Counted from the stretch's first letter, positions 6,782 through 19,781 are shown. The stretch: 64,000 nucleotides of DNA from a virus (IMGVR_UViG_3300032213_002091:25041-89040); one strand, 5' to 3'. Translations and numbers: made by a program. The notes: a model not told the origin generated them from the letters alone.

Positions 6782-8515
6782 ATGCGTCCCGTAATCACGA
6801 AAGCCAGCCAGCTCGAAGAACACAGCTCGTGGAGAAAATACCAGCGAGGCATACGTGAACTGACGCTTATGGAAGCACCACGCATGGTGATTCAGGATTT
6901 TCGGTACAAAGCTGCTCGCGATTGTTTTCTTGCTTTTTGCGACATTATGAAGCACGGCGACCTGCAGGTTGCCCCGTTTCATGAACTGATCGGCTCAGCG
7001 TTTGAAGACCTTGCTACGCGAAGGTACAAGCGATTGATTGTTTCCTGCCCGCCACGATCGGGGAAGTCAATGCTTGCGACCATGTTCCTAGCATGGCTTC
7101 TCGGGCGAGACCAAAGGACACAACACGTCATTGCCTCTTACGGTGCGTCCCTCTCCTTCAAATTTCACCGTGAAGTAGTTCACATGATGAAGTCGAAGGA
7201 GTTCAAGCGGGTGTTCCCTGAGTGGCTTGGATTCTCACCGGACTCAAAGTATGACATGGTCGGCGGCGGTTACATTCTTGCCACTTCCGTTGGCGGGGTT
7301 CTAACCGGTTTCACCGCCGGAACAACAGATATGGACAGCCCTGGCGTTGGCGCCATGGTGATTGACGACCCGCTCAAATCTTCGGACTCTAAACAAGCAC
7401 TCGACAACCTTGAATCTTGGTGGCAAGAGCAGGCGTCCACCCGAAGAACCAACCACTACTGCCAGATGGTTATCGCAACTCGCTTCCACGAGAAAGATTT
7501 GCATGGCGTTCTGATGGAAGGCGACGGCCTTTACGACGAAGTTCACAACCCGTTTGGTTGGCGTTGGATCAATATCGCAGGACTTTGCGAAGACCCGCGC
7601 ACTGACCCGCTTGAGCGGCAGATCGGTGATTCGCATTGGGGTGACAATCCGACTTTTTCTGTGCCGATGCTTGAGTCGCAGAAGAAGATTATGGGAAGCT
7701 TCAAATTTGCGGCGCTTTACCAAGGCGTTCCCGTTGCTGCGGAAGGCCAGATTGTCAAGAACAGTTGGATTGAGGTTATCGAAGAAGAAGATTGCCCGCC
7801 ACTTGATGTCGTGTGGTTAGCGGCTGACTGCGCTTTCTCCGAGAAACAAATGGCGGACGAAACCGCGATTTGCGTGGCTGGGATTAGTATGCGAGATCCG
7901 ACTGTGATCTACATTCGGGAGATCGTGAAAGGTCGATGGGGTTTCCCCGACTTGGTTGAAGCCGTGAAGCAAAACTACACATATTATCAGGCAAAAGTTC
8001 TATGTATCGAAAAAGCAGCTTCGGGGCACTCTCTCATTCAAGTTCTTCGAAAAGAAGCGAGAGTTCCGATCGAAGAGATGAAGCCGTTGAAGTCGAAGAC
8101 TACGAGACTTCAGGCCGTTTGTCCTTTACTGGAGAACAGCCGGGTTAAACTGGTTCAAGGGCACTGGACTGACACATTCATCAAGGAATTAACCTCATTC
8201 CCGTTTGTCCGTCACGACGACAGTACGGACGCTTTTGCTTGGGCGCTCACTTACTATGCAATGAAAATGGACGTTGTTGATCGTAACCTGCAGGACACGA
8301 TTATTCAAAACAAGCGATTCAAAGGAGATTTACTTCGCGATGGGCTCGGGGATAAGTCCGTCTTTGGGGAAATTCGCACAGGACGGCAGAAGTTGTTCTC
8401 GGGCGACACCGCAATTAACGACCCGGACTACGACGCTTCAACGATGGGTGTTGATGCTCGTTCACCTTTCGTGAGCGGAAGACGGGGTGGAAGAGGACGA
8501 CTCGGCTACGAATGA
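6782..8515 (+). CDS. terL: Terminase large subunit
   Basis: Walker A PPRSGKS, Walker B VIDDP, TRFHEKDL, nuclease motifs ADCAF, IEKAASG and RHDDSTDA. Confidence 0.95.
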   Translation: MRPVITKASQLEEHSSWRKYQRGIRELTLMEAPRMVIQDFRYKAARDCFLAFCDIMKHGDLQVAPFHELIGSAFEDLATRRYKRLIVSCPPRSGKSMLATMFLAWLLGRDQRTQHVIASYGASLSFKFHREVVHMMKSKEFKRVFPEWLGFSPDSKYDMVGGGYILATSVGGVLTGFTAGTTDMDSPGVGAMVIDDPLKSSDSKQALDNLESWWQEQASTRRTNHYCQMVIATRFHEKDLHGVLMEGDGLYDEVHNPFGWRWINIAGLCEDPRTDPLERQIGDSHWGDNPTFSVPMLESQKKIMGSFKFAALYQGVPVAAEGQIVKNSWIEVIEEEDCPPLDVVWLAADCAFSEKQMADETAICVAGISMRDPTVIYIREIVKGRWGFPDLVEAVKQNYTYYQAKVLCIEKAASGHSLIQVLRKEARVPIEEMKPLKSKTTRLQAVCPLLENSRVKLVQGHWTDTFIKELTSFPFVRHDDSTDAFAWALTYYAMKMDVVDRNLQDTIIQNKRFKGDLLRDGLGDKSVFGEIRTGRQKLFSGDTAINDPDYDASTMGVDARSPFVSGRRGGRGRLGYE

Positions 8516-10020: not shown

Positions 10021-10842
10021 ATGACTCGTTCCATTCGTTCTGAAGGGGGTGATAAGGATGTAATCCTGTTAAGCAGCAAAGTGTATGACCTACCCACCGA
10101 CTGTATCACTCCCTTAAACATGTTAGATTCAAAGACAAAGCGCAAGGCTCGCCGTGCTGAAAATGCCCAGATGCTAGAACAATCCTACCACAAAGGAATG
10201 GATGTCATGCCTCCCAAGTTTCTGACTTGGCGGCAAGAAGATCTGTGGAATTCCCTCAAGAAAAACACTGTTACTCTCGCCCATGGCTGTGCCGGAACCG
10301 GGAAAACGCTGATTGCGTTGCATTACGGATTGTATGGTGTCGCCTCCGGCGATTTCAACAAAGTGTACTACGTTCGAAGTGACGTGGGTGTTGAATTCCA
10401 GCGCGGGCGCGGAGCGCTGCCTGGAGACCTTTCCGAGAAGATCGCACCCCTGATTGCGCCTGTTCTTGACAACTTGCCCTGCATCATGAGATCGCACGGT
10501 GCAAGTGAGTACCTGCTGAACAAGAAAATTATCGAGCCTGTTCTCCTGGAAGACATTCGGGGACGCTCACTCAACGAGGCTTTCATCATTGTTGATGAGG
10601 CTCAGAATTTCCTCCCTTCACAAATCAAAACCGTCCTGACTCGCGTCGGCAAAGATTCGAAGATCCTTCTGATTGGTGACACGAAGCAGACCGATATGGA
10701 AGTGTTTCGAAGGGAAAATGGTTTGGTCGACGCTATTCACCGACTGCGCCACCTGTCGGAAGTTGGAATCGTAGAGTTCTCAAAAGAGGACATCGTTCGT
10801 AACTCCGTTATCGCTCACATTCTCGACCGTTACGAAGACTGA
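10021..10842 (+). CDS. phoH: PhoH-like ATPase
   Basis: GCAGTGKT, LPGDLSEK, IRGRSL, IVDEAQN, LTRVG, IGDTKQTD and DIVRN motifs; start is 10021 or 10120. Confidence 0.95.
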   Translation: MTRSIRSEGGDKDVILLSSKVYDLPTDCITPLNMLDSKTKRKARRAENAQMLEQSYHKGMDVMPPKFLTWRQEDLWNSLKKNTVTLAHGCAGTGKTLIALHYGLYGVASGDFNKVYYVRSDVGVEFQRGRGALPGDLSEKIAPLIAPVLDNLPCIMRSHGASEYLLNKKIIEPVLLEDIRGRSLNEAFIIVDEAQNFLPSQIKTVLTRVGKDSKILLIGDTKQTDMEVFRRENGLVDAIHRLRHLSEVGIVEFSKEDIVRNSVIAHILDRYED

Positions 10843-10847
10843 TTGCA

Positions 10848-12485
10848 ATGGGAAGTAAGTATCGCTGGTTTGACTTTGCAGACTCTCGCAATCTGCAAGG
10901 GGACGACGCAACTGTGGAGCGTCTTGGGCAAAAACAAGGAATCACAGGAGCATCTTCACCTTTGCCTAGCAAACCAGCGGCTTCCTCCAAATCAGAGGGA
11001 CCTACTTCTTCTGCTATCCGACAGGCAAACGAAAAGGCTGTTGGGGGGAAGCAGAAAAGATGTTCGGTTGGAAAGAAATGTAACGCAACGTGCATCCACA
11101 TCAATGACGACTGTTTAGTAGGCCTCAGCCCTTCTGTTGGGGCAGCTTTAAGCAGAGTTTCTAAGATTCTTTCGGAGCAGGTGGAAGGCGGACGAGTTAC
11201 CGAAGAGACCGCCGAAGAAGTTGTAGAAAAAGTTAAAGAACTGGAACAGTCTCAGACAAAAGCATTCTCAACGTTTAAGAGTTTACTCGACTCCGGTAAA
11301 ACCTCCGATGCTGAAGCAGATGGTGTTGCAAAACTTCTCGTTAGCACGATTATCACTCCCGGCCAAGACCGGAATATCGTTCGCAAAATGAGTTTTGAAG
11401 ACATTGAGGCCGCCCTTAAGCCCGGCAGACTTGAAGCCCTGGAGCAAGCGTATCAGAAATCTTTCAAATCTGACGGTAAGTTTGACCCTTCTCAGAAAGG
11501 TGGAATGGGGGACTTGATTAAGTCCACTTTCCTGAAACACGAAATTTCTGATGAGGTTGCCCAAGCCGCCTATTACATGCTTCCCTCGAAAGTCCGGTCC
11601 GCGATCGATAAAGCAGGGGCAGTAAAAGGAACCGCCGTAATGTATGGGGGTGACGACAGTAATGGAAACCCGACATTCACCGACAAACCTTCACGAGAAC
11701 GTGGAATTTTCCTTGTGAAACGGTGGATGGAGCAGGGTGGCCTAGATCCATACACTGGAAGACCCATCGATATTCGCAACGCGGAGCCTGAGCATATGGT
11801 TGCGTTTGCTCACGCCCTTGCGAAAGGTGGTGGTGGTGACCAACCGCGAAACCTTTTGTGGGCGGCACCTCAACCTAACAACCAGAAAGCGGGAGCCGAC
11901 GATAATTTCGTCACCTGGAAAAAGAATTTGGAAGAATATCGGAAAATGGGTAAAGACCGCTACGATAACGAAATATACAAACCCGCTTTGCAGGAGTCCG
12001 AGTCAACCAAAGGAAAGAAGGGGGCAGCACCAACCGACTTGGCAAATGCTTTGAGTTCAACTTCTCCCGAGGAACGTGTGGCCACCACTCGTAAACTCGT
12101 TGACTCGTATGGAGATAAAGTTCGCTACCTTGTCCGCGCAGCTGGAGTTGGTTGGCAGCACCAGGATCGAGATCTTGATCACAGACTAGGTGGAAAACCA
12201 GCCTTCATGAACAACGGGGTTCCGAAGCTACCCGGAACTAATGTTAAACCAAGTACGGCTGTTCTTATTGCACTTTCCGCAGTTGACCCAGCTAAGCGTG
12301 AATCCTTGAAAGAACGACTAGAAGAATTACGGAAAGCTCGCATTTTAACTGATTCCGAAGCAGCGGCCGTAAGAGGCGACAACTCCGCACGGCTAAGTCT
12401 ACAGGGGCAAAAGAGTAAAGACTATGGTGATGACCTTGCATCCCTTCTGAACGAGTTTGTACCCAACCTTGATTCTTTCTTGTAA
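10848..12485 (+). CDS. Cys-module protein with HNH nuclease domain
   Basis: KRCSVGKKCNATCIHINDDC; QGGLDPYTGRPID...EPEHMVAF...GGGDQPRNL...NNQK (HNH pattern). Confidence 0.7.
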   Translation: MGSKYRWFDFADSRNLQGDDATVERLGQKQGITGASSPLPSKPAASSKSEGPTSSAIRQANEKAVGGKQKRCSVGKKCNATCIHINDDCLVGLSPSVGAALSRVSKILSEQVEGGRVTEETAEEVVEKVKELEQSQTKAFSTFKSLLDSGKTSDAEADGVAKLLVSTIITPGQDRNIVRKMSFEDIEAALKPGRLEALEQAYQKSFKSDGKFDPSQKGGMGDLIKSTFLKHEISDEVAQAAYYMLPSKVRSAIDKAGAVKGTAVMYGGDDSNGNPTFTDKPSRERGIFLVKRWMEQGGLDPYTGRPIDIRNAEPEHMVAFAHALAKGGGGDQPRNLLWAAPQPNNQKAGADDNFVTWKKNLEEYRKMGKDRYDNEIYKPALQESESTKGKKGAAPTDLANALSSTSPEERVATTRKLVDSYGDKVRYLVRAAGVGWQHQDRDLDHRLGGKPAFMNNGVPKLPGTNVKPSTAVLIALSAVDPAKRESLKERLEELRKARILTDSEAAAVRGDNSARLSLQGQKSKDYGDDLASLLNEFVPNLDSFL

Positions 12486-12489
12486 AACC

Positions 12490-12822
12490 ATGCGCAAAGA
12501 CACTCGATTTAATCGCCCCGAGCGGCAAGAAATTGAAACCAAACTGAAGCCTGGAACTCTGGCCGATGCTCAAGCACTCGGGGTATGGAATATGATGCTG
12601 CAAGCTGACGACCCGTCGGAAGTCTGCCGGTGGTATCGTTCCTATCGTGACAGCGATCATTGCACTCTCCCGCGAGAGCAACTGCGAAATATGCGCGACA
12701 CAATGGTTCAGTCGATGCGAGAAACCAACCGCCAAGATTCAAACCCCCGCAAAGAAAAGAAGAAAGGGGTTCACTACGACCACCACAACGACGGTCGCAT
12801 TCGCCCAAGATCCGGAGCCTGA
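12490..12822 (+). CDS. Hypothetical protein
   Basis: ATG 12490, 4 nt after the HNH gene stop. Confidence 0.7.
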   Translation: MRKDTRFNRPERQEIETKLKPGTLADAQALGVWNMMLQADDPSEVCRWYRSYRDSDHCTLPREQLRNMRDTMVQSMRETNRQDSNPRKEKKKGVHYDHHNDGRIRPRSGA

Positions 12823-12823
12823 C

Positions 12824-13270
12824 ATGAACGCACTCGAAGAAATTTCTCAGCACAGGGTTCCCTGTGGCCCGATGACTGTGGCTGCTTCGGGTGTCTGCAG
12901 AAGGCGGCTGCGCGACTCTTACGACCGCCTTCTTGATCGTCTGGCACAAGAAATTCACCAGGAGTACACTCCGCCGGAACTTCCAAAGGATCACAAATTT
13001 GACAAAGAAGGAAAACTTGTTCACAAGGAAGAACTTGCCAAGCGTGAGCAAACTGCGAAAACAATGCAGAAGGGCAAAGAGAAGGCAAAGAAAGAGCGAG
13101 AGAAGAATGCTCCGCATTCTCCAGAGATTTTAGAATCCAAGAAAGAAAAGCTGCTGCAGGAAGGTATGATGAAGGCCGATGTCAAGAAGCAAGTGAAAGA
13201 GTACGAAGAGAAATTGATGGGGAATAGCAAGATGGGGCAAGATATCACGGGCAAGATCAAGAAACGTTAA
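12824..13270 (+). CDS. Hypothetical charged protein
   Basis: ATG 12824 (MNALEEISQHRVPCGP...GVCRRR); K/E-rich. Confidence 0.7.
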   Translation: MNALEEISQHRVPCGPMTVAASGVCRRRLRDSYDRLLDRLAQEIHQEYTPPELPKDHKFDKEGKLVHKEELAKREQTAKTMQKGKEKAKKEREKNAPHSPEILESKKEKLLQEGMMKADVKKQVKEYEEKLMGNSKMGQDITGKIKKR

Positions 13271-13278
13271 GGGTAAAA
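13271..13278 (+). promoter_or_regulatory. GGGTAAAA box
   Basis: 31 nt before ATG 13302. Confidence 0.75.
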
Positions 13279-13301
13279 CTTGAGCAGATTACATTAGTGT
13301 T

Positions 13302-14024
13302 ATGCTCGGTTCTTTTTCAGAGGAAGCTCTCTTCAAGTATTCGGAGATGGTTTCACAAACACAATCTGCAGACTTCTCCGAAGGAGAGAGTTACGACTTC
13401 ACACGGTGTATGCGACCTAACGGGTCTATCTACGGTACGCGAGGGCAATGCCGCAAAGGTGTAGAATCCACCAAAGGCGCAGCAGCCAAAGTAGCGGAAA
13501 GAGCAGCGAAACTGGCACGTCAGAGAAAGAATCAAACACCTGAAAGAAAAGACATGTATGACCGACTCGCAGCGAACGCCGCCGGTCGTGCGCGTGAACC
13601 TTTTGAGAAGGGCGATACCAGGGGGAATATGACGCCCGGTGAAAGGGAAAGACGCAGAGAAGCTGACGCGTACGAGTCAAGTCTATACGGGCATAAAAAT
13701 AACACTTACGGGCCAGGGGGTGTGACCAAGGATACGGGAAAGAAGAGAAAGCAAGAAGCACTCGGCGAATTCGCCAAGGCTGGATTACCATCAAGAGTTG
13801 ACGAGGCCATCGCAAGGGTTATGGAGCACCCGAAATTACAGAAATACGTTGACAAAAACGCCGCCTACGATGATATTGCAGCTACGGTACCAAAAAAAGT
13901 TCTGAAGAAAGTGTTGGGGTGGACCGACAAAGACCTCGTGGCAATTGTTAGGGGGACAGACCCTTACGAGGGAACTATTTACGAGGACGACGAAGGGAAT
14001 TACCAGTTTTACGGGGCGGCCTGA
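13302..14024 (+). CDS. Hypothetical protein with GSFSEEAL leader and YDFTRC...GQCRKG motif
   Basis: 240-aa ORF under a GGGTAAAA box. Confidence 0.75.
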   Translation: MLGSFSEEALFKYSEMVSQTQSADFSEGESYDFTRCMRPNGSIYGTRGQCRKGVESTKGAAAKVAERAAKLARQRKNQTPERKDMYDRLAANAAGRAREPFEKGDTRGNMTPGERERRREADAYESSLYGHKNNTYGPGGVTKDTGKKRKQEALGEFAKAGLPSRVDEAIARVMEHPKLQKYVDKNAAYDDIAATVPKKVLKKVLGWTDKDLVAIVRGTDPYEGTIYEDDEGNYQFYGAA

Positions 14025-14026
14025 GC

Positions 14027-14034
14027 GGGTAAAA
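14027..14034 (+). promoter_or_regulatory. GGGTAAAA box
   Basis: 35 nt before ATG 14062. Confidence 0.75.
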
Positions 14035-14061
14035 TAATTAAAGTTCTATAACAACTGACAA

Positions 14062-14424
14062 ATGAGCAACAGAATTGGAGGCGACTTCGACATGGACGCC
14101 GTTGAAGCATTTCGCGATGCGTACGCATCTCGTCTAATGACTCCGGAGGATCAAGACGTTGATGCGTTCACAGGTCTCCCCACTGGCGAAATCTCAAACA
14201 CTTCTCCGTGGCTTGCCCACACAGGATTGTGGAAATACCCAAGCGGAAAAGGCCCCGACGACGATCTGAAACAACCCTTCCAACCGGAATCCTACTACGA
14301 GGAGGAAGAGACCGACGAGGATGAGGAGCTCACTGAAGAAGAGATTGATACCCTTATCGATGAAATTCTTGACGAAATTAGAACGGAGGGAGACGATGGG
14401 TCTACTGACGAAGACAACGAATAA
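14062..14424 (+). CDS. Highly acidic hypothetical protein
   Basis: 120 aa with a D/E-rich C-terminal half. Confidence 0.75.
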   Translation: MSNRIGGDFDMDAVEAFRDAYASRLMTPEDQDVDAFTGLPTGEISNTSPWLAHTGLWKYPSGKGPDDDLKQPFQPESYYEEEETDEDEELTEEEIDTLIDEILDEIRTEGDDGSTDEDNE

Positions 14425-14716
14425 TTTTAATGAGCGGCGTTTTCTGATTCGCAGCCTCGTTATCATTTTCTTGATTCAGTTTGCATCTACTGGTGCGCAG
14501 TTTGCCAACTGTTTCAAACTCTCAAACAGCTCGGCTGAAACCGAGCGCACGAACCTCGTCTGCAGCCAGGCAAATTCAAGTTTCTCCGAGACTAGCAAAT
14601 TAGCGTTGACAACTCTGCTGGCTTTGTTAGTTCCCGCCGCGCCTGCAGGCGGTGCCGTGGTTGAGCAAGGGACTCGCCGTCGCAAAACTACTGAAGAGTC
14701 CGAGAATCTTTCGTAA
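14396..14716 (+). CDS. Small two-TM membrane protein (possible lysis protein)
   Basis: Hydrophobic FLIRSLVIIFLIQF and LALTTLLALLVPA, basic tail. Confidence 0.55.
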   Translation: MGLLTKTTNNFNERRFLIRSLVIIFLIQFASTGAQFANCFKLSNSSAETERTNLVCSQANSSFSETSKLALTTLLALLVPAAPAGGAVVEQGTRRRKTTEESENLS

Positions 14717-14717
14717 A

Positions 14718-14725
14718 GGGTAAAA
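14718..14725 (+). promoter_or_regulatory. GGGTAAAA box
   Basis: 33 nt before ATG 14751. Confidence 0.75.
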
Positions 14726-14750
14726 GGAAAGTATTGCCACTACCCCCTGT

Positions 14751-15458
14751 ATGTACGGATCCCGTCTCGACTTCTCCGACGTTTCGCTTCCTGGCGTGGG
14801 CGGTAACATTAACGCCTCAAATGCGATTAGCGTGGACAGGTTGAAAGAAATGAACGCCTCCGGCAAGAAGTGGGCTCCCGACATTACTGGCGGGATGTCT
14901 CACCACAACGAAAGTGTTCTGAAAATGAACGCTGCCAATCGCGAAAAACGTGCCAACCTCGTCAACCGGGATTACAACGAAAATTGCGATGGCAACAAAG
15001 CAATGAAAGAGATTTTCGACCGCAAAAAGTCTCGCATGGCCTCCTTCAAGGAGCTTAAGAAAGCCGAGTATGGGTTCGCCGAAGGTGATTCCCAGGACAC
15101 CGAGCTGCTTGCAATCCCGCAACCTTTCGCAATGGCCGAATGCAAATGCGGAGGAACCTGCCCCGTTTGCCGCGATAAAAAGCGCAAAGATGCAGAGTAC
15201 CGTGAGTGGAGCACGGAGAAGCGCAAAGAACTGAAAGAAGGGGGAGTTAAGGGGGAGTTCGCCGGGCCTGAAATGTCCTTCCCAATCTCGAGCCCTGAGG
15301 ACGTTGCCGCTGCATGGTCTTCTGTAGGCAGAGGAAAAAACCCTCGTCAAATCATGGCTAACATCATTCGTATCGCGAAGAAACACGGCTGGGAGTCGGG
15401 TTTGCCGCAGTCCGTAAAAGACCGTCTAGCCTCAGGTCAATCTGGTCTGCCGGAGTAG
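14751..15458 (+). CDS. Hypothetical virion-type protein with CxCxxxCxxC and a FAGP..SFPI domain
   Basis: 235-aa ORF; ECKCGGTCPVC; GEFAGPEMSFPISSPEDV...IIRIAKKHG. Confidence 0.75.
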   Translation: MYGSRLDFSDVSLPGVGGNINASNAISVDRLKEMNASGKKWAPDITGGMSHHNESVLKMNAANREKRANLVNRDYNENCDGNKAMKEIFDRKKSRMASFKELKKAEYGFAEGDSQDTELLAIPQPFAMAECKCGGTCPVCRDKKRKDAEYREWSTEKRKELKEGGVKGEFAGPEMSFPISSPEDVAAAWSSVGRGKNPRQIMANIIRIAKKHGWESGLPQSVKDRLASGQSGLPE

Positions 15459-15459
15459 T

Positions 15460-15726
15460 ATGGAACCCGTAACAATCTTAAGTATTGTGGCGTCAGTCGT
15501 AACAACCGTGTCTGGAATCGGGTGGGTTCTGGAACGAAACGGTAAGCGCATTGACGACAGATTTGGAACCATTATCCGTCATATGGAGAAGATGGAAAGG
15601 GTTCTTGACAACCTAAGAACGGACCTGCCAATCAAGTACACTCTGCGGGAAGATCACTTGCGCTTAACGGAAAAAGTCGAGGATATCCAGAAAGAACTCA
15701 TCATTTGGAAGACCACGGAGTCATGA
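15460..15726 (+). CDS. TM plus coiled-coil protein (holin-like candidate)
   Basis: N-terminal hydrophobic helix followed by a heptad-rich region. Confidence 0.5.
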   Translation: MEPVTILSIVASVVTTVSGIGWVLERNGKRIDDRFGTIIRHMEKMERVLDNLRTDLPIKYTLREDHLRLTEKVEDIQKELIIWKTTES

Positions 15727-15727
15727 A

Positions 15728-16285
15728 ATGAACTTTGAAGATTATGACTGGAATCGCCTTGACGGGCTAGGTTTCAAAGAAAGTACAAAAGATGATCTCA
15801 AAGACGCCTGCTGGTCTGGCTATAAGGCGTATGGTCTCAAGAAGAAAGGTGGGAGAATGGTTCCCAACTGCGTAAAGATCGATAGTAAGCACAGTGAAGG
15901 TGACATTGCCACTGCGGAAATGACACCGAACTACCTACCGAAAGAACCAGGCGAAGGCGACGAAAAAAACCCCCAAATGAATGAAGGAACCCCGATTCGA
16001 ATGCCCCGCATGGAAGTGATCAAGAAGGCAGCCGATAAAAACGGTCAGCTTGCTATGCACGCTTCTGTCAACGACTCCACTTATTCCGAGGTTCTTCAAT
16101 CCACTGAGAACAACGGCGGAATGATCATTACCCAGCTTCGTGTTGCTCTGGAGAAGATCGAAATTATGCTCGATATGCTCGATGCAGAAGACAATCTTCC
16201 ACCGTGGGCTGCAACCAAAATTGCAAACGCTGGTGTTGCCTTAGCAAGCGTTGGCGACTACATTCGTTTCGGCGAGGAAGGTTGA
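15728..16285 (+). CDS. Hypothetical protein with cyanophage-type CWxGY...MVPNCV motif
   Basis: DACWSGYKAYGLKKKGGRMVPNCVK and C-terminal DNLPPWAATKI, both recalled from cyanomyovirus proteins. Confidence 0.7.
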   Translation: MNFEDYDWNRLDGLGFKESTKDDLKDACWSGYKAYGLKKKGGRMVPNCVKIDSKHSEGDIATAEMTPNYLPKEPGEGDEKNPQMNEGTPIRMPRMEVIKKAADKNGQLAMHASVNDSTYSEVLQSTENNGGMIITQLRVALEKIEIMLDMLDAEDNLPPWAATKIANAGVALASVGDYIRFGEEG

Positions 16286-16593
16286 TGTGGGGTTCTTTCT
16301 TTGCGGGAGTTCTTGAGCGGTTTTACCAGGACTACGCCGAAAAAGCAAACTTAGCCTGCAACAAACCGCAGGCGGACACTCAAGGCGGACACAGCCATGT
16401 TGTCAAAGCGTGTTACGACGGTCAGGAAAAGTTGATTCGGTTCGGTCAAGCTGGCGTCAAAGGTTCCCCTAAGAAAGAAGGTGAGTCGGAGTCTTACAAG
16501 GCTCGACGCGAAGCTTTCAAAGCGCGGCACGCAAAAAACATCGCGAAAGGACCGTCTTCCGCCGCATATTGGGCCAACAAAGTTAAGTGGTGA
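16285..16593 (+). CDS. Conserved basic phage protein
   Basis: ATG 16285; HVVKAC...IRFGQ...FKARH...AAYWANKVKW. Confidence 0.75.
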   Translation: MWGSFFAGVLERFYQDYAEKANLACNKPQADTQGGHSHVVKACYDGQEKLIRFGQAGVKGSPKKEGESESYKARREAFKARHAKNIAKGPSSAAYWANKVKW

Positions 16594-16598
16594 ATCTC

Positions 16599-17102
16599 AT
16601 GCAAAGCAATTTCAATTTCCCCTCCGTTGACCACCTGATTGAAGGTGTTCACTACACTATCGTAGACTGGGACTTCGCGGACGGCCAAGGTTGCGGAGAT
16701 GGCGAGAAGATGGTTTTTGGCGTCTGTCGCAAAGTTGGTGGTGGAACGGGTGAGAAAGACTTCGACTCCAGCAAGAAAACAAAGCAGGAAGAAGAAGGGG
16801 AAGCCGAAGCTAAGAAGCAAGGTTCCGACGTCAAAAGCAACAAACCGGTGACAGTGAACGGCAAGAAGATGGGCTGGGCCGTCAAAAACGGGAAGCCCGT
16901 GCTTGTTGAGTGGGGTTCAGTCGCTGGTGAAAAGAAAGTGGGTCCGAAACCCGTAAAACCAAGTCAATCGCCCCGCCCAAAAAACGTTCAAGCGCCCTCC
17001 CCTGCCCAACCGGCTTCAGCTTTGGCGAACCCGAACGCTAGCAGCTCGGCTCGACAGCAGGCTATCAACACAATCGGTCGCAACACCCTTCAAAACACTT
17101 GA
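16599..17102 (+). CDS. Hypothetical protein (WDFAD, GC...GVCRK)
   Basis: ATG 16599; K/P-rich C-terminus. Confidence 0.7.
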   Translation: MQSNFNFPSVDHLIEGVHYTIVDWDFADGQGCGDGEKMVFGVCRKVGGGTGEKDFDSSKKTKQEEEGEAEAKKQGSDVKSNKPVTVNGKKMGWAVKNGKPVLVEWGSVAGEKKVGPKPVKPSQSPRPKNVQAPSPAQPASALANPNASSSARQQAINTIGRNTLQNT

Positions 17103-17104
17103 TA

Positions 17105-17112
17105 GGGTAAAA
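17105..17112 (+). promoter_or_regulatory. GGGTAAAA box
   Basis: 33 nt before ATG 17138. Confidence 0.75.
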
Positions 17113-17137
17113 GTATCCATAAAGCCTCCGTCCCGAC

Positions 17138-17650
17138 ATGCGTACAGACGCCATTTCTGAAAAGGCTATTGAACAAGCCTACTTGATTTATTCGGAGCGG
17201 GGACACCAGATCCTCGATTACTCCCACACACCGACAGATTACGCTCGCGGAACCGTTCTAGAACCCGAGAATACATCTGTGATCAACTCCCGTTTCGGCG
17301 AGCTTCTGCCGGAAAGCATTCGGGATGGCGGAGAGTATGACAGCCTTTCCGAGCAAGAAAGATCCCTCGATCTGCGCATCGACTCTCTTCAAAACGAGAT
17401 GCGTACCTCGCGTATGCGTGGAAATTTCAAGGGCCTGCAAGCTCAGATGAAGGAAATGCACAACCTAATCAAAGCCAAAGAGGCGCTTGACGCAAAGCTC
17501 GCCACGCTTGATCTTGGTTGCAAACAAATGGACGATTACGACCGGACGATGAATCAGGACGATTCTTACTCCGAGCAAATTCAGTCCGTCGGAGCTCGCA
17601 TTTCTGAACTCGAAGCCAAACTTGAAGAGTACCGGGAGAGCCGCCAGTGA
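17138..17650 (+). CDS. Coiled-coil hypothetical protein
   Basis: 170 aa, heptad pattern, two YSE motifs. Confidence 0.7.
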   Translation: MRTDAISEKAIEQAYLIYSERGHQILDYSHTPTDYARGTVLEPENTSVINSRFGELLPESIRDGGEYDSLSEQERSLDLRIDSLQNEMRTSRMRGNFKGLQAQMKEMHNLIKAKEALDAKLATLDLGCKQMDDYDRTMNQDDSYSEQIQSVGARISELEAKLEEYRESRQ

Positions 17651-19620
17651 AAAAGAGATGCAGCCGCAGTAAAGCGTGTGGAGCAGGTTGTATCAGCAAT
17701 TCAAAAGCGTGCCGGCTCAACTTCCCAACCACTGTAAACAACATTCTCAACAAAGCCTCGGATCAAGTCGGGGTTGTTGAACTCTACCGTGCTGCTGCTG
17801 CAGGCGGAAAGCGCGGCGGCGCGGCTCAGTTCGAGAAGATCAAGAAGGAACTTCGCCAAGAACTCGGCAGAAACATTCGCGCAGGCGAAGACGCACGGGA
17901 ACTCAAGCGACGCCTCGTTGCGGCTGGCGTGATTCCAGCACGAGGTGCTGCAGCACCTAAGACAGAAGAAAACGCTGGGCAAATTTTCCAGAAAGCCGTC
18001 GCACAACCACAATCGGTTCCTTCCGCTCTGAAGCAAGAACTGAATCAAATCGCGGCTAGAGATCAGCAACAAAAAGATAACAAACCCGACTCCTTGTACG
18101 GAGCATGGGATACGAATCTTCTAGTTAGGTTCCGGAAAGATCTCTCGAACCAAAAATTTGAGGATAGGGAGATCATTAAGCTAGCTAAAAATAGAGTAGA
18201 CCGGGAGTTAGCTCGCAGAGAGGAAAAACCGAGTGAGAAACCTCCGGTAGTTCTCGCAGCGCGGCAACTTGATAAGTCACCCGGCGCTCGAACAAGAACG
18301 GTCCCCCCGCCAAGGGGAATAACGAATGGCGAATCCGATAACTGGCAATGGACCGGCGTGACTGACGTATTCGACGATATTTCACGCATAATGAGGGGAG
18401 TATCTCCGCGACACATTTCCATGGTTGGTGACGAAAGTGCGCGAGTCAAGAAATCACAAATCGCGCAACTTCAATCCGTGTTGGGTCTCGGAGCTCAAAC
18501 GAGGAAAGAAGTTGGCCGTGACCTGGAAGGGCTTCTCGATGAGGCAAGAAATCTGAAAGGCAGACTCATTAGTCAGCAGAAAAGGTTCAAAGGTAGTGAC
18601 CAGGAGAGATTGGTTTTACTCGATCGTCTCAAGAAAGTTCGAGAAGCGATTCAAGGTCCTGCCACCAAAGCAACCGGAAACGTTCGCTACGCTCGTGAAG
18701 ATGCCCGCGACCATGACGGTGATATGCTGAGCAAAGGAATTTCTCGTGAGCTTGGAAACAAGTCGTATCGCTGGGAAGATTCTTACGGCTCCGGCTCAAC
18801 TCTTCTCGGAAGAGGTGCCTATGGAACTGTTCTTCGTGAACCAAACAAGGGTAACGCCATCAAGAGAGGCGAAGTTGGCAAAATTGAGGCCGATCTGATT
18901 GATCGCCTTGGTAAAGTTGATCTTGGTCCGAAACTTCTTGCTGCACAACTTGACGGTGATTCTCAGTATAACCCTGGAACGAAGATCGGTCGCGTGGCGA
19001 TGAGCGTGGTTGCAGGAAGTCCGATCGGCTCAAAAGCGCCCGACAAAGAAATTGGCGGTGTCAAAGTCGCTGATGCGTATTGGATTGCTCGAGCAAATCT
19101 TCACAGAATGGGTATCGCTCACAACGATATGCACATTGATAACGTCCTTGTTGATCGCAAAGGTAAAGCCCGTTTCGTTGACATGGGCCTCGCTCAGGAT
19201 TCACCGAAGGCAGCTTTAGCTGAGGCAATGGGTGTTTTTCTTCCACCGAGGGGATCTACGGCAGATAGAGGACGTGGTGCTGCAGGGCAAGGGGACTGGC
19301 AAGTTCGCAGATGGAAGGGAACGGCAGGCGATCTGTTGTCAATATATGAGAAGGGAACTAAAAATGGTGGTACCCCGCTGGCAACAGAGAGAGCCCGGAA
19401 AGATCTAGAGACAAAAGCCCCCATCCTTGCTAAAGTTCGAGAAAACAAAAACGAAGTGCAGTTTGCGATGCTTCGAGATGGTTTCTCCAAAGACGACATC
19501 GCCACCGTGATGGACCACGGGATTCGCTCGCCGATGGAGACTTACGAGCAGGGCGTCTGGGCTAAAATAAGCAACGAACAGGCACAAAAATACATCTCGA
19601 TTCTTTACGACGGAGTTTGA
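17647..19620 (+). CDS. Cys-module protein with a C-terminal Ser/Thr protein-kinase-like domain
   Basis: KRCSRSKACGAGCISNSKAC; LGRGAYGTV, AIK, HNDMHIDNVLV, FVDMGLA. Confidence 0.85.
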   Translation: MKKRCSRSKACGAGCISNSKACRLNFPTTVNNILNKASDQVGVVELYRAAAAGGKRGGAAQFEKIKKELRQELGRNIRAGEDARELKRRLVAAGVIPARGAAAPKTEENAGQIFQKAVAQPQSVPSALKQELNQIAARDQQQKDNKPDSLYGAWDTNLLVRFRKDLSNQKFEDREIIKLAKNRVDRELARREEKPSEKPPVVLAARQLDKSPGARTRTVPPPRGITNGESDNWQWTGVTDVFDDISRIMRGVSPRHISMVGDESARVKKSQIAQLQSVLGLGAQTRKEVGRDLEGLLDEARNLKGRLISQQKRFKGSDQERLVLLDRLKKVREAIQGPATKATGNVRYAREDARDHDGDMLSKGISRELGNKSYRWEDSYGSGSTLLGRGAYGTVLREPNKGNAIKRGEVGKIEADLIDRLGKVDLGPKLLAAQLDGDSQYNPGTKIGRVAMSVVAGSPIGSKAPDKEIGGVKVADAYWIARANLHRMGIAHNDMHIDNVLVDRKGKARFVDMGLAQDSPKAALAEAMGVFLPPRGSTADRGRGAAGQGDWQVRRWKGTAGDLLSIYEKGTKNGGTPLATERARKDLETKAPILAKVRENKNEVQFAMLRDGFSKDDIATVMDHGIRSPMETYEQGVWAKISNEQAQKYISILYDGV

Positions 19621-19781
19621 TGGGCAAGCACGACGAACAGTATATCGCTCTGATGTCACGTTACAAGGAGCGCAGACAAGAGCTGGGCGAAAGAGCGGAT
19701 CTCTACCTTGAGGCGGCAATGAAGCTTCGAGAGAAGGGAGAAGTGAGCGAAGACGCGATTATCGGCGGGGCCTACCTGTAG
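19620..19781 (+). CDS. 53-aa protein translationally coupled to the kinase gene (not in the ORF track)
   Basis: TGATG overlap; MGKHDEQYIALMSRYKERRQELGERADLYLEAAMKL...GAYL. Confidence 0.7.
   Translation: MGKHDEQYIALMSRYKERRQELGERADLYLEAAMKLREKGEVSEDAIIGGAYL

What the first reader, a model, noticed from the sequence alone, without database searches (positions are those of the whole stretch)
10848..19781. Polymorphic effector pair: identical Cx5Cx3Cx6C module fused to an HNH nuclease or a protein kinase
Seen: 11061-11114 (KR-CSVGKKCNATCIHINDDC) and 17659-17712 (KR-CSRSKACGAGCISNSKAC) have identical Cys spacing and a similar following helix (SVGAALSRVS / TVNNILNKAS). After long charged linkers the C-termini are unrelated: HNH (about 11730-11890) versus kinase (about 18800-19200). 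Each gene is followed at once by a small ORF (12490; 19620 via TGATG). Known: a conserved N-terminal targeting domain, variable toxic tip and coupled immunity gene define polymorphic toxins, including phage MuF toxins. Inference: this may be an undescribed phage effector family delivered in the virion for host takeover, anti-defence or phage competition.
Basis: partly seen in the sequence, partly recalled or inferred. Interest (0 to 1): 0.85.

Follow-up and report, generated by a model that had tools for sequence, protein, structure and literature searches.

The report
Four-cysteine tag on cyanophage enzymes
Two genes of this uncultured cyanobacterial virus, a Cas9-type HNH nuclease and a protein kinase, start with the same small uncatalogued four-cysteine module that related viruses attach to many different enzymes, and it probably marks enzymes carried inside the virus particle into the host.

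Summary
ORF A (10848-12485) and ORF B (17647-19620) hold the only two Cx5Cx3Cx6C strings in the 89-kb phage genome. The two modules are homologous: an HMM built only from ORF A relatives finds ORF B at E=1.6e-8. ORF A carries a Cas9-type HNH core and ORF B a protein kinase.

The module heads a large family: 959 clusters at E<=0.001. Its partners include kinases, HNH, ADP-ribosyltransferases, zeta-toxin-like kinases, a zincin peptidase, lipases and DnaJ. The slot between phoH and the next gene holds HNH variant 1, variant 2, a peptidase, a kinase or nothing in related phages.

In the cultured relative S-CBWM1, four of five tagged proteins are annotated or reported as virion proteins. So virion-carried cargo is the best reading, though the loading role of the tag is untested.

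The toxin-immunity part fails for ORF A: the downstream 110-aa gene stays whatever fills the slot. The 53-aa gene after the kinase is a conserved partner of unknown role.

New here: C1 and C3 are always lost together, and the cargo has about 40 times fewer Cys outside the tag.

This scan had already reached the same tag reading on other genomes.

The parts
10848..12485 (+). ORF A, 545 aa: leader, 4-Cys module, helical body with a Cas9-type HNH core
   Evidence: ORF. 64 homologs. 45% identical to S-CBWM1 gp174 'virion structural protein'. AlphaFold mean pLDDT 77.5.
10848..11045 (+). N-terminal leader of ORF A (aa 1-66, MGSKYRWFDFADSRNLQGDDA...)
   Evidence: Nearly identical in P0055-P0064, whose bodies are only 22-28% identical. 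DNA is 90% identical to L015/L023 over 10828-10984 and unalignable after that.
11061..11114 (+). 4-Cys module of ORF A (C72, C78, C82, C89)
   Evidence: The exact pattern is in 62 of 64 homologs.
11130..11186 (+). Helix following the module in ORF A (aa 95-113)
   Evidence: AlphaFold secondary structure.
11745..11888 (+). HNH core of ORF A (D300 ... E315 H316 ... N335 ... N344 K347)
   Evidence: E315, H316, N335 and N344 are invariant in 24 sequences. The A1 profile hits Cas9 HNH domains at E=5.5e-5. Foldseek gives a local match to 7mpz, prob 0.85, rmsd 2.0 over 67 columns.
12490..12822 (+). 110-aa conserved gene after ORF A (homolog of S-CBWM1 gp107); neighbour, not cognate immunity
   Evidence: tblastn matches in 41 loci (some of them overlapping stretches of one contig), 35-98% identity. 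It follows different slot contents or an empty slot. No Pfam hit.
17105..17112 (+). GGGTAAAA motif ahead of the unit 17138-17650 / ORF B / 53-aa ORF
   Evidence: 18 copies in the window against 2.3 expected, mostly about 30 nt before start codons.
17647..19620 (+). ORF B, 657 aa: 4-Cys module, K/R/E-rich middle part, protein kinase
   Evidence: ORF. 140 homologs, many with PF00069. Exact module in 65 of the 120 listed.
17659..17712 (+). 4-Cys module of ORF B (C5, C11, C15, C22)
   Evidence: AlphaFold of aa 1-52 on alignment A3: pLDDT 77.4, beta-hairpin 9-11/14-16.
17728..17799 (+). Helices after the module in ORF B (aa 28-51)
18805..19617 (+). Kinase domain of ORF B (GRGAYG loop, AIK, HNDMHIDN, VDMG)
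   Evidence: Pfam Pkinase E=6.3e-5, 22.9 bits against a 31.7 cut-off, aa 484-521. PHROG kinase aa 387-521. tblastn to cyanophage Ser/Thr kinases. Weak PDB hits on the catalytic loop. The motif names are recalled.
19620..19781 (+). 53-aa partner gene overlapping the kinase stop (TGATG)
   Evidence: Found directly after the kinase in L064-L068, L013 and (weakly) L052. Also S-CBWM1 gp114 and S-CREM2 gp13.

Best explanation
ORF A and ORF B belong to a large, uncatalogued family of cyanophage proteins. An N-terminal unit of about 45 aa is fused to interchangeable enzymes. The unit is a basic run, a Cx5Cx3Cx6C beta-hairpin and an amphipathic helix.

The most likely working: both proteins are made late, incorporated into the virion, and delivered to the cyanobacterial cell with the DNA. 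There the kinase phosphorylates host (or phage) proteins and the Cas9-type HNH nuclease cuts DNA, as early takeover or counter-defence enzymes. The 4-Cys unit is the shared handle that gets such cargo into the particle.

Shown: the two modules are homologous. The enzyme domains are HNH and kinase with catalytic residues in place. The tag goes with many different C-termini, and the C-terminus differs at one locus between close relatives. The tag holds the only cysteines of the cargo.

Inferred: virion location of these two proteins (from the S-CBWM1 homologs), loading by the tag, delivery, and the targets.

The pairing C1-C3 and C2-C4 (disulfides or two separate functional pairs) is inferred from loss patterns. 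The 53-aa gene after the kinase is a conserved partner, such as a subunit, chaperone or inhibitor. The 110-aa gene after ORF A is only a syntenic neighbour.
For: Homology of the tag:
- E=1.6e-8, next hit 0.61.
- exact pattern in 62/64 ORF A homologs and 65/120 ORF B homologs.

Family size:
- 959 cluster representatives at E<=0.001 and 219 at <=1e-10, out of 1.84 billion.
- the tag starts within the first 40 aa in 102 of 141 newly listed proteins.

Cargo diversity:
- ART PF03496/PF01129.
- Zeta_toxin E=7.9e-22.
- HELGH zincin motif.
- Lipase/esterase, DnaJ and LRAT domains in giants with 2-6 tags.
- 15 C-terminal clusters among 278 tagged proteins.

Gene arrays and numbers per genome:
- Five tagged genes within the 12-kb locus L013, four in L011, three in L058.
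- 5 tags in S-CBWM1 and 13 in a 154-kb virus record.

Same-locus swapping:
- Against L015/L023, phoH is 97% identical and the first 137 nt of ORF A 90%. Nothing aligns over 10985-12489, and identity is 91% again from 12490.
- The slot between phoH and the 110-aa gene holds HNH in 20 loci, zincin in 6, a kinase in 1, and none within 400 nt in 11, out of 38.

Virion evidence:
- gp174 is annotated 'virion structural protein' and sits next to the major capsid gene.
- PMC10665884 (passages read): APH, ChoK and Rio2 kinases detected in S-CBWM1 virions.
- gp162, gp161 and gp113 all start with the tag. The PknB-like gp173 has none.
- S-CREM2 virions hold a homologous kinase and a Cas9-like nuclease.
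- The S-TIM5 match to the HNH region lies under a 'virion structural protein' feature.
- In the siphovirus CL131 a 1811-aa protein with 4 tags lies between tape-measure-type genes.
- The window genes lie between terL/phoH and tail-fibre genes.

Cysteine economy:
- 0.023 Cys per 100 aa outside the tag in 278 tagged proteins; 258 have none.
- The comparison set, 44 other + strand ORFs of 200 aa or more in this genome, has 0.94 per 100 aa.
Against: - No experiment shows the module loading anything.
- The virion data are second-hand. The original S-CBWM1 paper is not in the library, and my mapping of 'APH, ChoK, Rio2' to gp162, gp161 and gp113 rests on product names.
- The authors of PMC10665884 themselves warn that abundant regulatory proteins may co-purify with virions in CsCl.
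- The fifth tagged S-CBWM1 protein, gp106, is annotated only as hypothetical.
- The virion kinase and nuclease of S-CREM2 lack the tag, so it is not needed for virion association in every lineage.
- The tag also lies inside giant proteins (10 of 141 first copies start beyond aa 130).
- It also occurs in small bacterial proteins with signal peptides. That fits a generic stabilising mini-domain as well as an address.
- AlphaFold gave the module pLDDT below 50 within full-length ORF A.
Confidence: 0.55

Rival explanations
1. Polymorphic toxin with cognate immunity. The tag is a trafficking domain, the C-termini are toxins for host killing or phage-phage competition, and the ORF right after each gene is its antidote.
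For: The domain repertoire (HNH, ART, zeta toxin, lipases, peptidase) overlaps that of polymorphic toxins and polyvalent proteins (PMC5512222 passages). C-termini are swapped at one locus. The 53-aa ORF is translationally coupled to the kinase and conserved with it across distant phages.
Against: The 110-aa ORF does not co-vary with the upstream domain and persists when the slot is empty. Two tagged kinases of S-CBWM1 (gp161, gp162) have no small ORF after them. The zeta-type gene in L044 is followed by no obvious partner at once, and is preceded by another tagged gene. The S-CREM2 homolog of the 53-aa protein stands in the virion proteome table (row '13 ... 1 11.5'), which suits a co-packaged partner better than a producer-cell antidote. 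No MuF domain was found.
Confidence: 0.12
2. The module serves the enzymes, not loading. It would be a small metal-binding or disulfide-stabilised nucleic-acid- or protein-binding knuckle that directs the enzymes to a substrate. Virion presence would come from other signals (leaders, linkers) or from co-purification.
For: A basic run precedes C1 in most copies (KRKRC, KKKKC). The module recurs inside multi-domain giants and in secreted bacterial proteins. ORF A has a separate conserved 66-aa leader. Tag-less homologs are found in S-CREM2 virions.
Against: A substrate-binding knuckle would not be expected on enzymes as unrelated as lipases, DnaJ, peptidases, kinases and nucleases. Four of five tagged S-CBWM1 proteins are tied to virions, and the untagged kinase gp173 is not named among them. 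No known Zn-finger family matched by sequence or fold (0 PDB hits at E<=10; best Z 2.3). C3 is replaced by Y, F, N or W in 14 of 31 degenerate copies, which does not fit a kept metal site.
Confidence: 0.22
3. ORF A is a packaging-associated HNH protein that helps the terminase, like the HNH proteins next to terminase genes in HK97-like phages (recalled). It would not be an injected effector.
For: ORF A lies 2.3 kb downstream of terL, and its HNH catalytic residues are invariant.
Against: In S-CBWM1 the ortholog sits next to the major capsid gene, not the terminase, and is annotated as a virion protein. The slot can instead hold a peptidase or a kinase, or be empty, so its content is dispensable for packaging. 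The HNH is of the Cas9 type inside a 545-aa helical protein.
Confidence: 0.04
4. Chance resemblance of two cysteine-rich strings.
For: None beyond the shortness of the motif.
Confidence: 0.01

Closest known systems
Phage T4 internal head proteins IPI-III and the ADP-ribosyltransferase Alt with their capsid targeting sequence (PMC9026906, passages read)
   Same: A short N-terminal element is shared by otherwise unrelated proteins that are packed in the head and ejected into the host. The cargo includes host-modifying enzymes (ART). The cargo set varies between related phages.
   Different: The T4 CTS is a roughly 10-residue propeptide without cysteines, and the prohead protease removes it. Here the element is a roughly 45-aa folded unit with four cysteines. 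No cleavage or loading has been shown. It also occurs in a siphovirus and inside giant proteins.
Virion-associated protein kinases and 'Cas9-like nuclease' of cyanophages (S-CBWM1, S-CRM01, S-TIM5, S-CREM2; PMC10665884, section 19 and passages read)
   Same: ORF B is homologous to these kinases (29-33% identity), and ORF A's HNH region matches S-TIM5 virion protein DNA. The order kinase, small ORF, HNH nuclease is seen in S-CREM2. The small ORF is homologous to the window's 53-aa ORF.
   Different: The passages I read do not mention a shared N-terminal module. S-CREM2 proteins lack the 4-Cys tag. The annotated GenBank starts of S-CBWM1 gp113 and gp161 leave the tag out.
Polyvalent proteins and MuF-anchored phage effectors (Iyer et al. 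2017, PMC5512222, passages read). MuF polymorphic toxins (Jamet et al. 2017) are recalled, not read.
   Same: Phage-packaged effectors with the same kinds of domains (ART, kinases, zeta-toxin-like kinase, peptidases, lipid- or peptidoglycan-acting hydrolases). Combinatorial architectures. Giant multi-domain relatives exist here too.
   Different: No MuF, portal-associated or other known anchor domain was found. ORF A and ORF B carry a single effector each. The word 'cysteine' does not occur in the main text of PMC5512222.
Cas9 HNH domain (Pfam HNH_4 type)
   Same: The profile of ORF A homologs aligns to Cas9 HNH over DxYTG ... (D/E)H ... N ... N..K. The predicted fold matches locally.
   Different: A stand-alone HNH inside a helical 545-aa phage protein. 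No RuvC, no guide-RNA parts. Activity is untested.

Membership tests
HNH (beta-beta-alpha-metal) nucleases, Cas9 / HNH_4 type | Catalytic (D/E)-H pair followed by conserved Asn residues, on a beta-hairpin plus helix | tested here: met
   E315, H316, N335 and N344 are invariant, and D300 and K347 are at least 90% conserved, in 24 sequences. Predicted strands 313-316 and 336-339 and helix 341-349.
HNH (beta-beta-alpha-metal) nucleases, Cas9 / HNH_4 type | Significant sequence or fold similarity to known HNH domains | tested here: met
   A1 profile against PDB: Cas9 HNH at E=5.5e-5, 8.2e-5 and 8.9e-4. Foldseek 7mpz prob 0.85, rmsd 2.0, but E=1.2 for the whole model. Pfam found no HNH family on ORF A alone. 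One tagged relative matched HNH_4 at 4.2e-5.
HNH (beta-beta-alpha-metal) nucleases, Cas9 / HNH_4 type | Nuclease activity | not testable with these tools
   Needs an assay of the purified protein with and without H316A.
Protein kinase superfamily (eukaryotic-like / RIO / APH-like) | Pfam Pkinase match above the gathering score | tested here: inconclusive
   ORF B scores 22.9 bits against a 31.7 cut-off, E=6.3e-5, over the catalytic loop only. Many homologs carry a precomputed PF00069 hit. PHROG 'kinase' E=1.1e-4 over aa 387-521.
Protein kinase superfamily (eukaryotic-like / RIO / APH-like) | Gly-rich loop, Lys, catalytic HxD...N and DxG motifs | tested here: met
   GRGAYG, AIK, HNDMHIDN and VDMG are read in the translation. 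The last two align to HRDIKPDN and DFG of a human kinase. The motif definitions are recalled.
Polymorphic toxin systems / MuF toxins | Conserved N-terminal part with variable C-terminal toxin domains | tested here: met
Polymorphic toxin systems / MuF toxins | Cognate immunity gene directly downstream that changes with the toxin domain | tested here: not met
   For ORF A, the 110-aa gene is the same downstream of HNH, zincin, kinase or an empty slot. For ORF B it is inconclusive: the 53-aa gene is tied to one kinase subfamily, and two other tagged kinases have no such gene.
Polymorphic toxin systems / MuF toxins | MuF (Mu gp30 / SPP1 gp7) domain | tested here: not met
   No such Pfam or PHROG match in ORF A or ORF B. 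One tagged relative matches the C-terminal third of a 'head morphogenesis' PHROG.
T4-type CTS internal proteins | Presence in purified virions | tested here: inconclusive
   Known only for homologs and only at second hand. There are no data for this phage.
T4-type CTS internal proteins | Short N-terminal propeptide cleaved by the prohead protease | not testable with these tools
   ORF B starts directly with the tag. ORF A has a 66-aa leader. A portal-adjacent peptidase homolog exists in the genome. Cleavage needs N-terminal mapping.
Polyvalent proteins (Iyer et al. 2017) | Two or more effector domains in one polypeptide | tested here: not met
   ORF A and ORF B have one enzyme domain each. Giant tagged relatives (900-3641 aa) do meet the feature.
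Classical zinc ribbons / knuckles | Two CxxC-type knuckles, or similarity to a known Zn-binding fold | tested here: inconclusive
   The spacing is Cx5C and Cx6C. There were 0 PDB sequence hits at E<=10, and the best fold Z was 2.3. Metal binding is untested.

The most novel reading that the evidence does not exclude
The four cysteines are a redox device as well as an address. In otherwise Cys-free cargo they would form C1-C3 and C2-C4 disulfides, or a disulfide tether to a virion part, while the particle sits in oxygenated water. Reduction in the host cytoplasm would then release or switch on the enzyme. This would make the unit a portable, reduction-triggered loading handle shared by myo- and siphoviral cyanophages, and usable to pack foreign proteins.
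Probability: 0.15. Interest if true: 0.85.

Novelty: new variant of a known kind. Interest (0 to 1): 0.66.

Why it matters
Phage proteins that enter the cell with the DNA decide the first minutes of infection, yet outside T4, N4 and the MuF-type proteins little is known about how they are chosen for packing. Here one small module heads about a thousand protein clusters with a dozen or more enzyme types. Its link to virion proteomics in a cultured host-phage pair (S-CBWM1 / Synechococcus CBW1002) makes the question directly testable. If the tag loads cargo, it gives a rule for finding injected effectors in cyanophage metagenomes and a handle for packing foreign proteins. The paired loss of cysteines and the near absence of Cys in the cargo point to unusual redox chemistry.

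Tried and rejected
Searches that found nothing for the module:
- Pfam: no family on the module in ORF A or ORF B at E<=0.1. None in a 10-repeat or a 3-repeat protein at E<=0.001.
- PDB sequences: 0 hits at E<=10.
- VIA-align wide fold search: best Z 2.3.
- ESM Atlas: no usable hit.
- These absences do not show that the fold is new.

Other results that led nowhere:
- Foldseek on the whole ORF A model gave no match at E<=0.001, only the local Cas9 HNH row.
- Megablast of the region against cultured phages found no match.
- tblastn of one 44-aa module against 50,697 phage records at E<=1 found 3 records: S-CBWM1 under two accessions, and CL131.
- The degenerate DNA pattern in bacterial genomes gave 60 stretches. 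By my own arithmetic (not a tool result) that is about the chance number. Only 6 of the 60 were true 4-Cys modules.

Readings rejected:
- Chance motif.
- The 110-aa ORF as immunity.
- ORF A as a terminase helper.
- A long disordered linker in ORF A.

Literature:
- No paper in the searchable library describes the module.
- Searches. 'find' for 'cysteine' in PMC5512222 and PMC7824862 gave 0 occurrences each.
- Not seen: the original S-CBWM1 paper (Xu et al. 2018, not held). All supplements were closed, among them Table S5 of PMC6293099, which lists the CL131 virion proteins and could say whether gp048 is in the particle, and the files of PMC5512222.

Sampling caveats:
- The cluster counts are biased, because 184 of the proteins were collected as homologs of ORF A and ORF B.
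- The less biased set is the best 150 (tallies).
- Proteins under 150 aa and 3'-cut ORFs were dropped before clustering.
- 41 of the 141 proteins (under 180 or over 800 aa) were left out of the Pfam tally.
- 29 of the 31 degenerate modules come from one kinase clade, so they represent few independent events.

Full report
WHAT IS THERE. The window is bases 25041-89040 of an 89,040-bp single-contig virus record. It is related to Synechococcus phage S-CBWM1 (Aokuangvirus): sheath, portal, peptidase, capsid and phoH homologs are 46-66% identical. Its late region runs terL (6782-8515), phoH, ORF A (10848-12485), a row of small genes, ORF B (17647-19620), a 53-aa gene and then tail-fibre genes. They are the only Cx5Cx3Cx6C matches in all six frames of the genome.

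THE TWO MODULES ARE HOMOLOGOUS. The pattern is exact in 62 of 64 homologs of ORF A and in 65 of 120 listed homologs of ORF B. The shared consensus is (K/R)(K/R)C-x-KGKSCGATCI-x5-C, followed by a hydrophobic stretch and a helix. An HMM made only from ORF A relatives (59 distinct modules, the window's own left out) finds ORF B at E=1.6e-8 among 1165 six-frame ORFs of this genome. The next hit is at 0.61.

THE ENZYMES. In 24 ORF A relatives, E315, H316, N335 and N344 are invariant. The profile hits Cas9 HNH domains in the PDB at E=5.5e-5. The AlphaFold model (pLDDT 77.5) matches a Cas9 HNH domain locally, with prob 0.85 and rmsd 2.0 over 67 columns, while the rest of the helical protein matches nothing. 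ORF B has a kinase core. Pfam Pkinase scores below its cut-off (E=6.3e-5), but PHROG 'kinase' families match, PF00069 is recorded on many homologs, and the catalytic motifs are present.

A LARGE POLYMORPHIC FAMILY. A profile of 62 modules taken from the window and IMG/VR loci finds 959 cluster representatives at E<=0.001 in 1.84 billion proteins. Partners of the module are:
- Ser/Thr kinases of several kinds and HNH of two divergent variants.
- ADP-ribosyltransferases.
- A zeta-toxin-like kinase, E=7.9e-22.
- A HELGH zincin peptidase.
- A PGDYG domain.
- Lipases/esterases, DnaJ and LRAT in giant proteins with 2-6 modules.
- Many classes without a name.

Genomes carry from 2 copies (this one) to 13, and the tagged genes often lie close together in one locus.

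Polymorphism is visible at one locus. Against L015/L023, phoH is 97% identical and the first 137 nt of ORF A 90%. Nothing aligns over 10985-12489, and identity returns at 12490. The replaced body is an HNH variant only 22-28% identical. Across 38 loci that hold the 110-aa gene, the slot after phoH has an HNH-type gene in 20, the zincin type in 6, a kinase in 1, and no tagged gene within 400 nt in 11. In three of those 11, phoH ends 51-158 nt before the 110-aa gene.

THE DOWNSTREAM ORFS. The 110-aa gene (12490-12822, homolog of S-CBWM1 gp107) is therefore a fixed neighbour, not a cognate antidote. The 53-aa gene overlaps the kinase stop. It follows this kinase subfamily in IMG/VR relatives, in S-CBWM1 (gp114) and in the T4-like S-CREM2 (gp13), where the kinase has no Cys tag. 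The S-CREM2 proteome table has a row '13 ... Hypothetical protein 1 11.5'. I read the last two numbers as one peptide and 11.5% coverage, but the column heads were not in the passage. Two other tagged kinases of S-CBWM1 have no such partner.

VIRION LINK. S-CBWM1 has five tagged proteins:
- gp174, an HNH protein annotated as a virion structural protein, next to the capsid gene.
- gp113 (RIO-like), gp161 (ChoK-like) and gp162 (APH-like) kinases.
- gp106, annotated hypothetical.

PMC10665884 states, citing Xu et al. [quoted passage not shown] The untagged PknB-like gp173 is not named there. The same paper finds a homologous kinase and a 'Cas9 nuclease' in S-CREM2 virions, and warns that co-purification is possible. 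In the siphovirus CL131 a 1811-aa protein with four tags and three hydrolase domains lies between tape-measure-type genes. Its proteome table is a closed supplement.

CHEMISTRY OF THE TAG.
- Of 431 module copies aligned to the profile, 398 have all four Cys. In 31, C3 is replaced (H, Y, F, N, W) and C1 does not align.
- For 29 kinase copies and the 3 copies I checked by eye, the C1 position holds another residue. Two copies have C1 at a shifted spacing.
- No copy lacks C2 or C4, or one Cys alone. This points to two pairs, C1-C3 and C2-C4.
- Outside the tag, the 278 tagged proteins have 0.023 Cys per 100 aa, and 258 have none. The comparison set, 44 other + strand ORFs of 200 aa or more in this genome, has 0.94.
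- ORF A and ORF B have no other Cys.
- Six bacterial relatives, and four of the 141 listed representatives, are small proteins whose N-termini look like signal peptides to me.
- AlphaFold on the module alone gives a beta-hairpin and two helices at pLDDT 77.

READING. The best-supported model is virion cargo with a shared loading handle, analogous to the T4 capsid targeting sequence and Alt (PMC9026906) and to the polyvalent proteins (PMC5512222), but with a new, folded, cysteine-based element. Loading by the tag, delivery and the targets are all inferred. The rivals are a substrate-directing knuckle, toxin-immunity and a terminase helper. Each is weighed in its own section.

EARLIER NOTES. This scan reached the same tag reading on other genomes. 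I saw those texts only after my own. They agree with my results and did not change them.

Noticed in passing
window 2519-57307 (18 sites, e.g. 9986, 13271, 14027, 14718, 17105, 19781, 24076): GGGTAAAA occurs 18 times against 2.3 expected. 17 copies are on the + strand, mostly about 30 nt before start codons of late genes. It looks like a phage promoter or another start-linked signal, and it splits the block into units.
   Followed up: partly
window 13302-14024 (aa 36-53) and L044:4706-5818: A second N-terminal tag, C-x13-C-[RK]-K-G (CMRPNGSIYGTRGQCRKG). The same tag heads a Zeta_toxin-domain protein in L044 (E=8.1e-18), next to a 4-Cys-tagged zeta-type paralog. So at least two tag types carry like cargo.
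   Followed up: partly
window 15728-16285 (aa 16-64): The motif CWSGYKAYGLKKKGGRMVPNC matches eight PHROG families at very different profile positions. It looks like another mobile small Cys module.
   Followed up: no
L002 / L040 (S-CBWM1 gp113) and L131 (gp161): The GenBank starts of gp113 (GTG just after C4) and gp161 lie downstream of, or inside, the 4-Cys module. Longer ORFs with ATG starts include the whole tag.
   Followed up: yes
L130 (S-CREM2 gp12, gp13, gp14): The virion kinase, the small partner and the Cas9-like nuclease of this T4-like phage begin with similar leaders (RFDAFLTEE, SFLTEQ, RFASFMAEA). Kinase and nuclease also share a repeat of the type G-x-G-x-[WY]-x-D-x5-[IV]-x-[RH]. 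This looks like a different tag system for the same kind of cargo. The likeness to the T4 CTS is from recall.
   Followed up: no
L030:5995-6159: In one relative the tagged gene in the phoH slot is cut to 54 aa, possibly a decaying copy.
   Followed up: no
L023:5266-5732 against window 10828-10844: L023 and L015 have about 470 nt more between phoH and the tagged gene, and the 17 nt around the phoH stop appear twice in the alignment. This may be a scar of the cassette exchange.
   Followed up: no
window 12824-13270: The ORF listed as 12647-13270 is conserved only from about aa 60 on. The real gene probably starts at the ATG near 12824, right after the stop of the 110-aa gene.
   Followed up: partly
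P0270 (527 aa, metagenome protein): A protein with ten 4-Cys repeats and what looks to me like a C-terminal membrane anchor. It looks cellular and extracellular, not phage-like.
   Followed up: no
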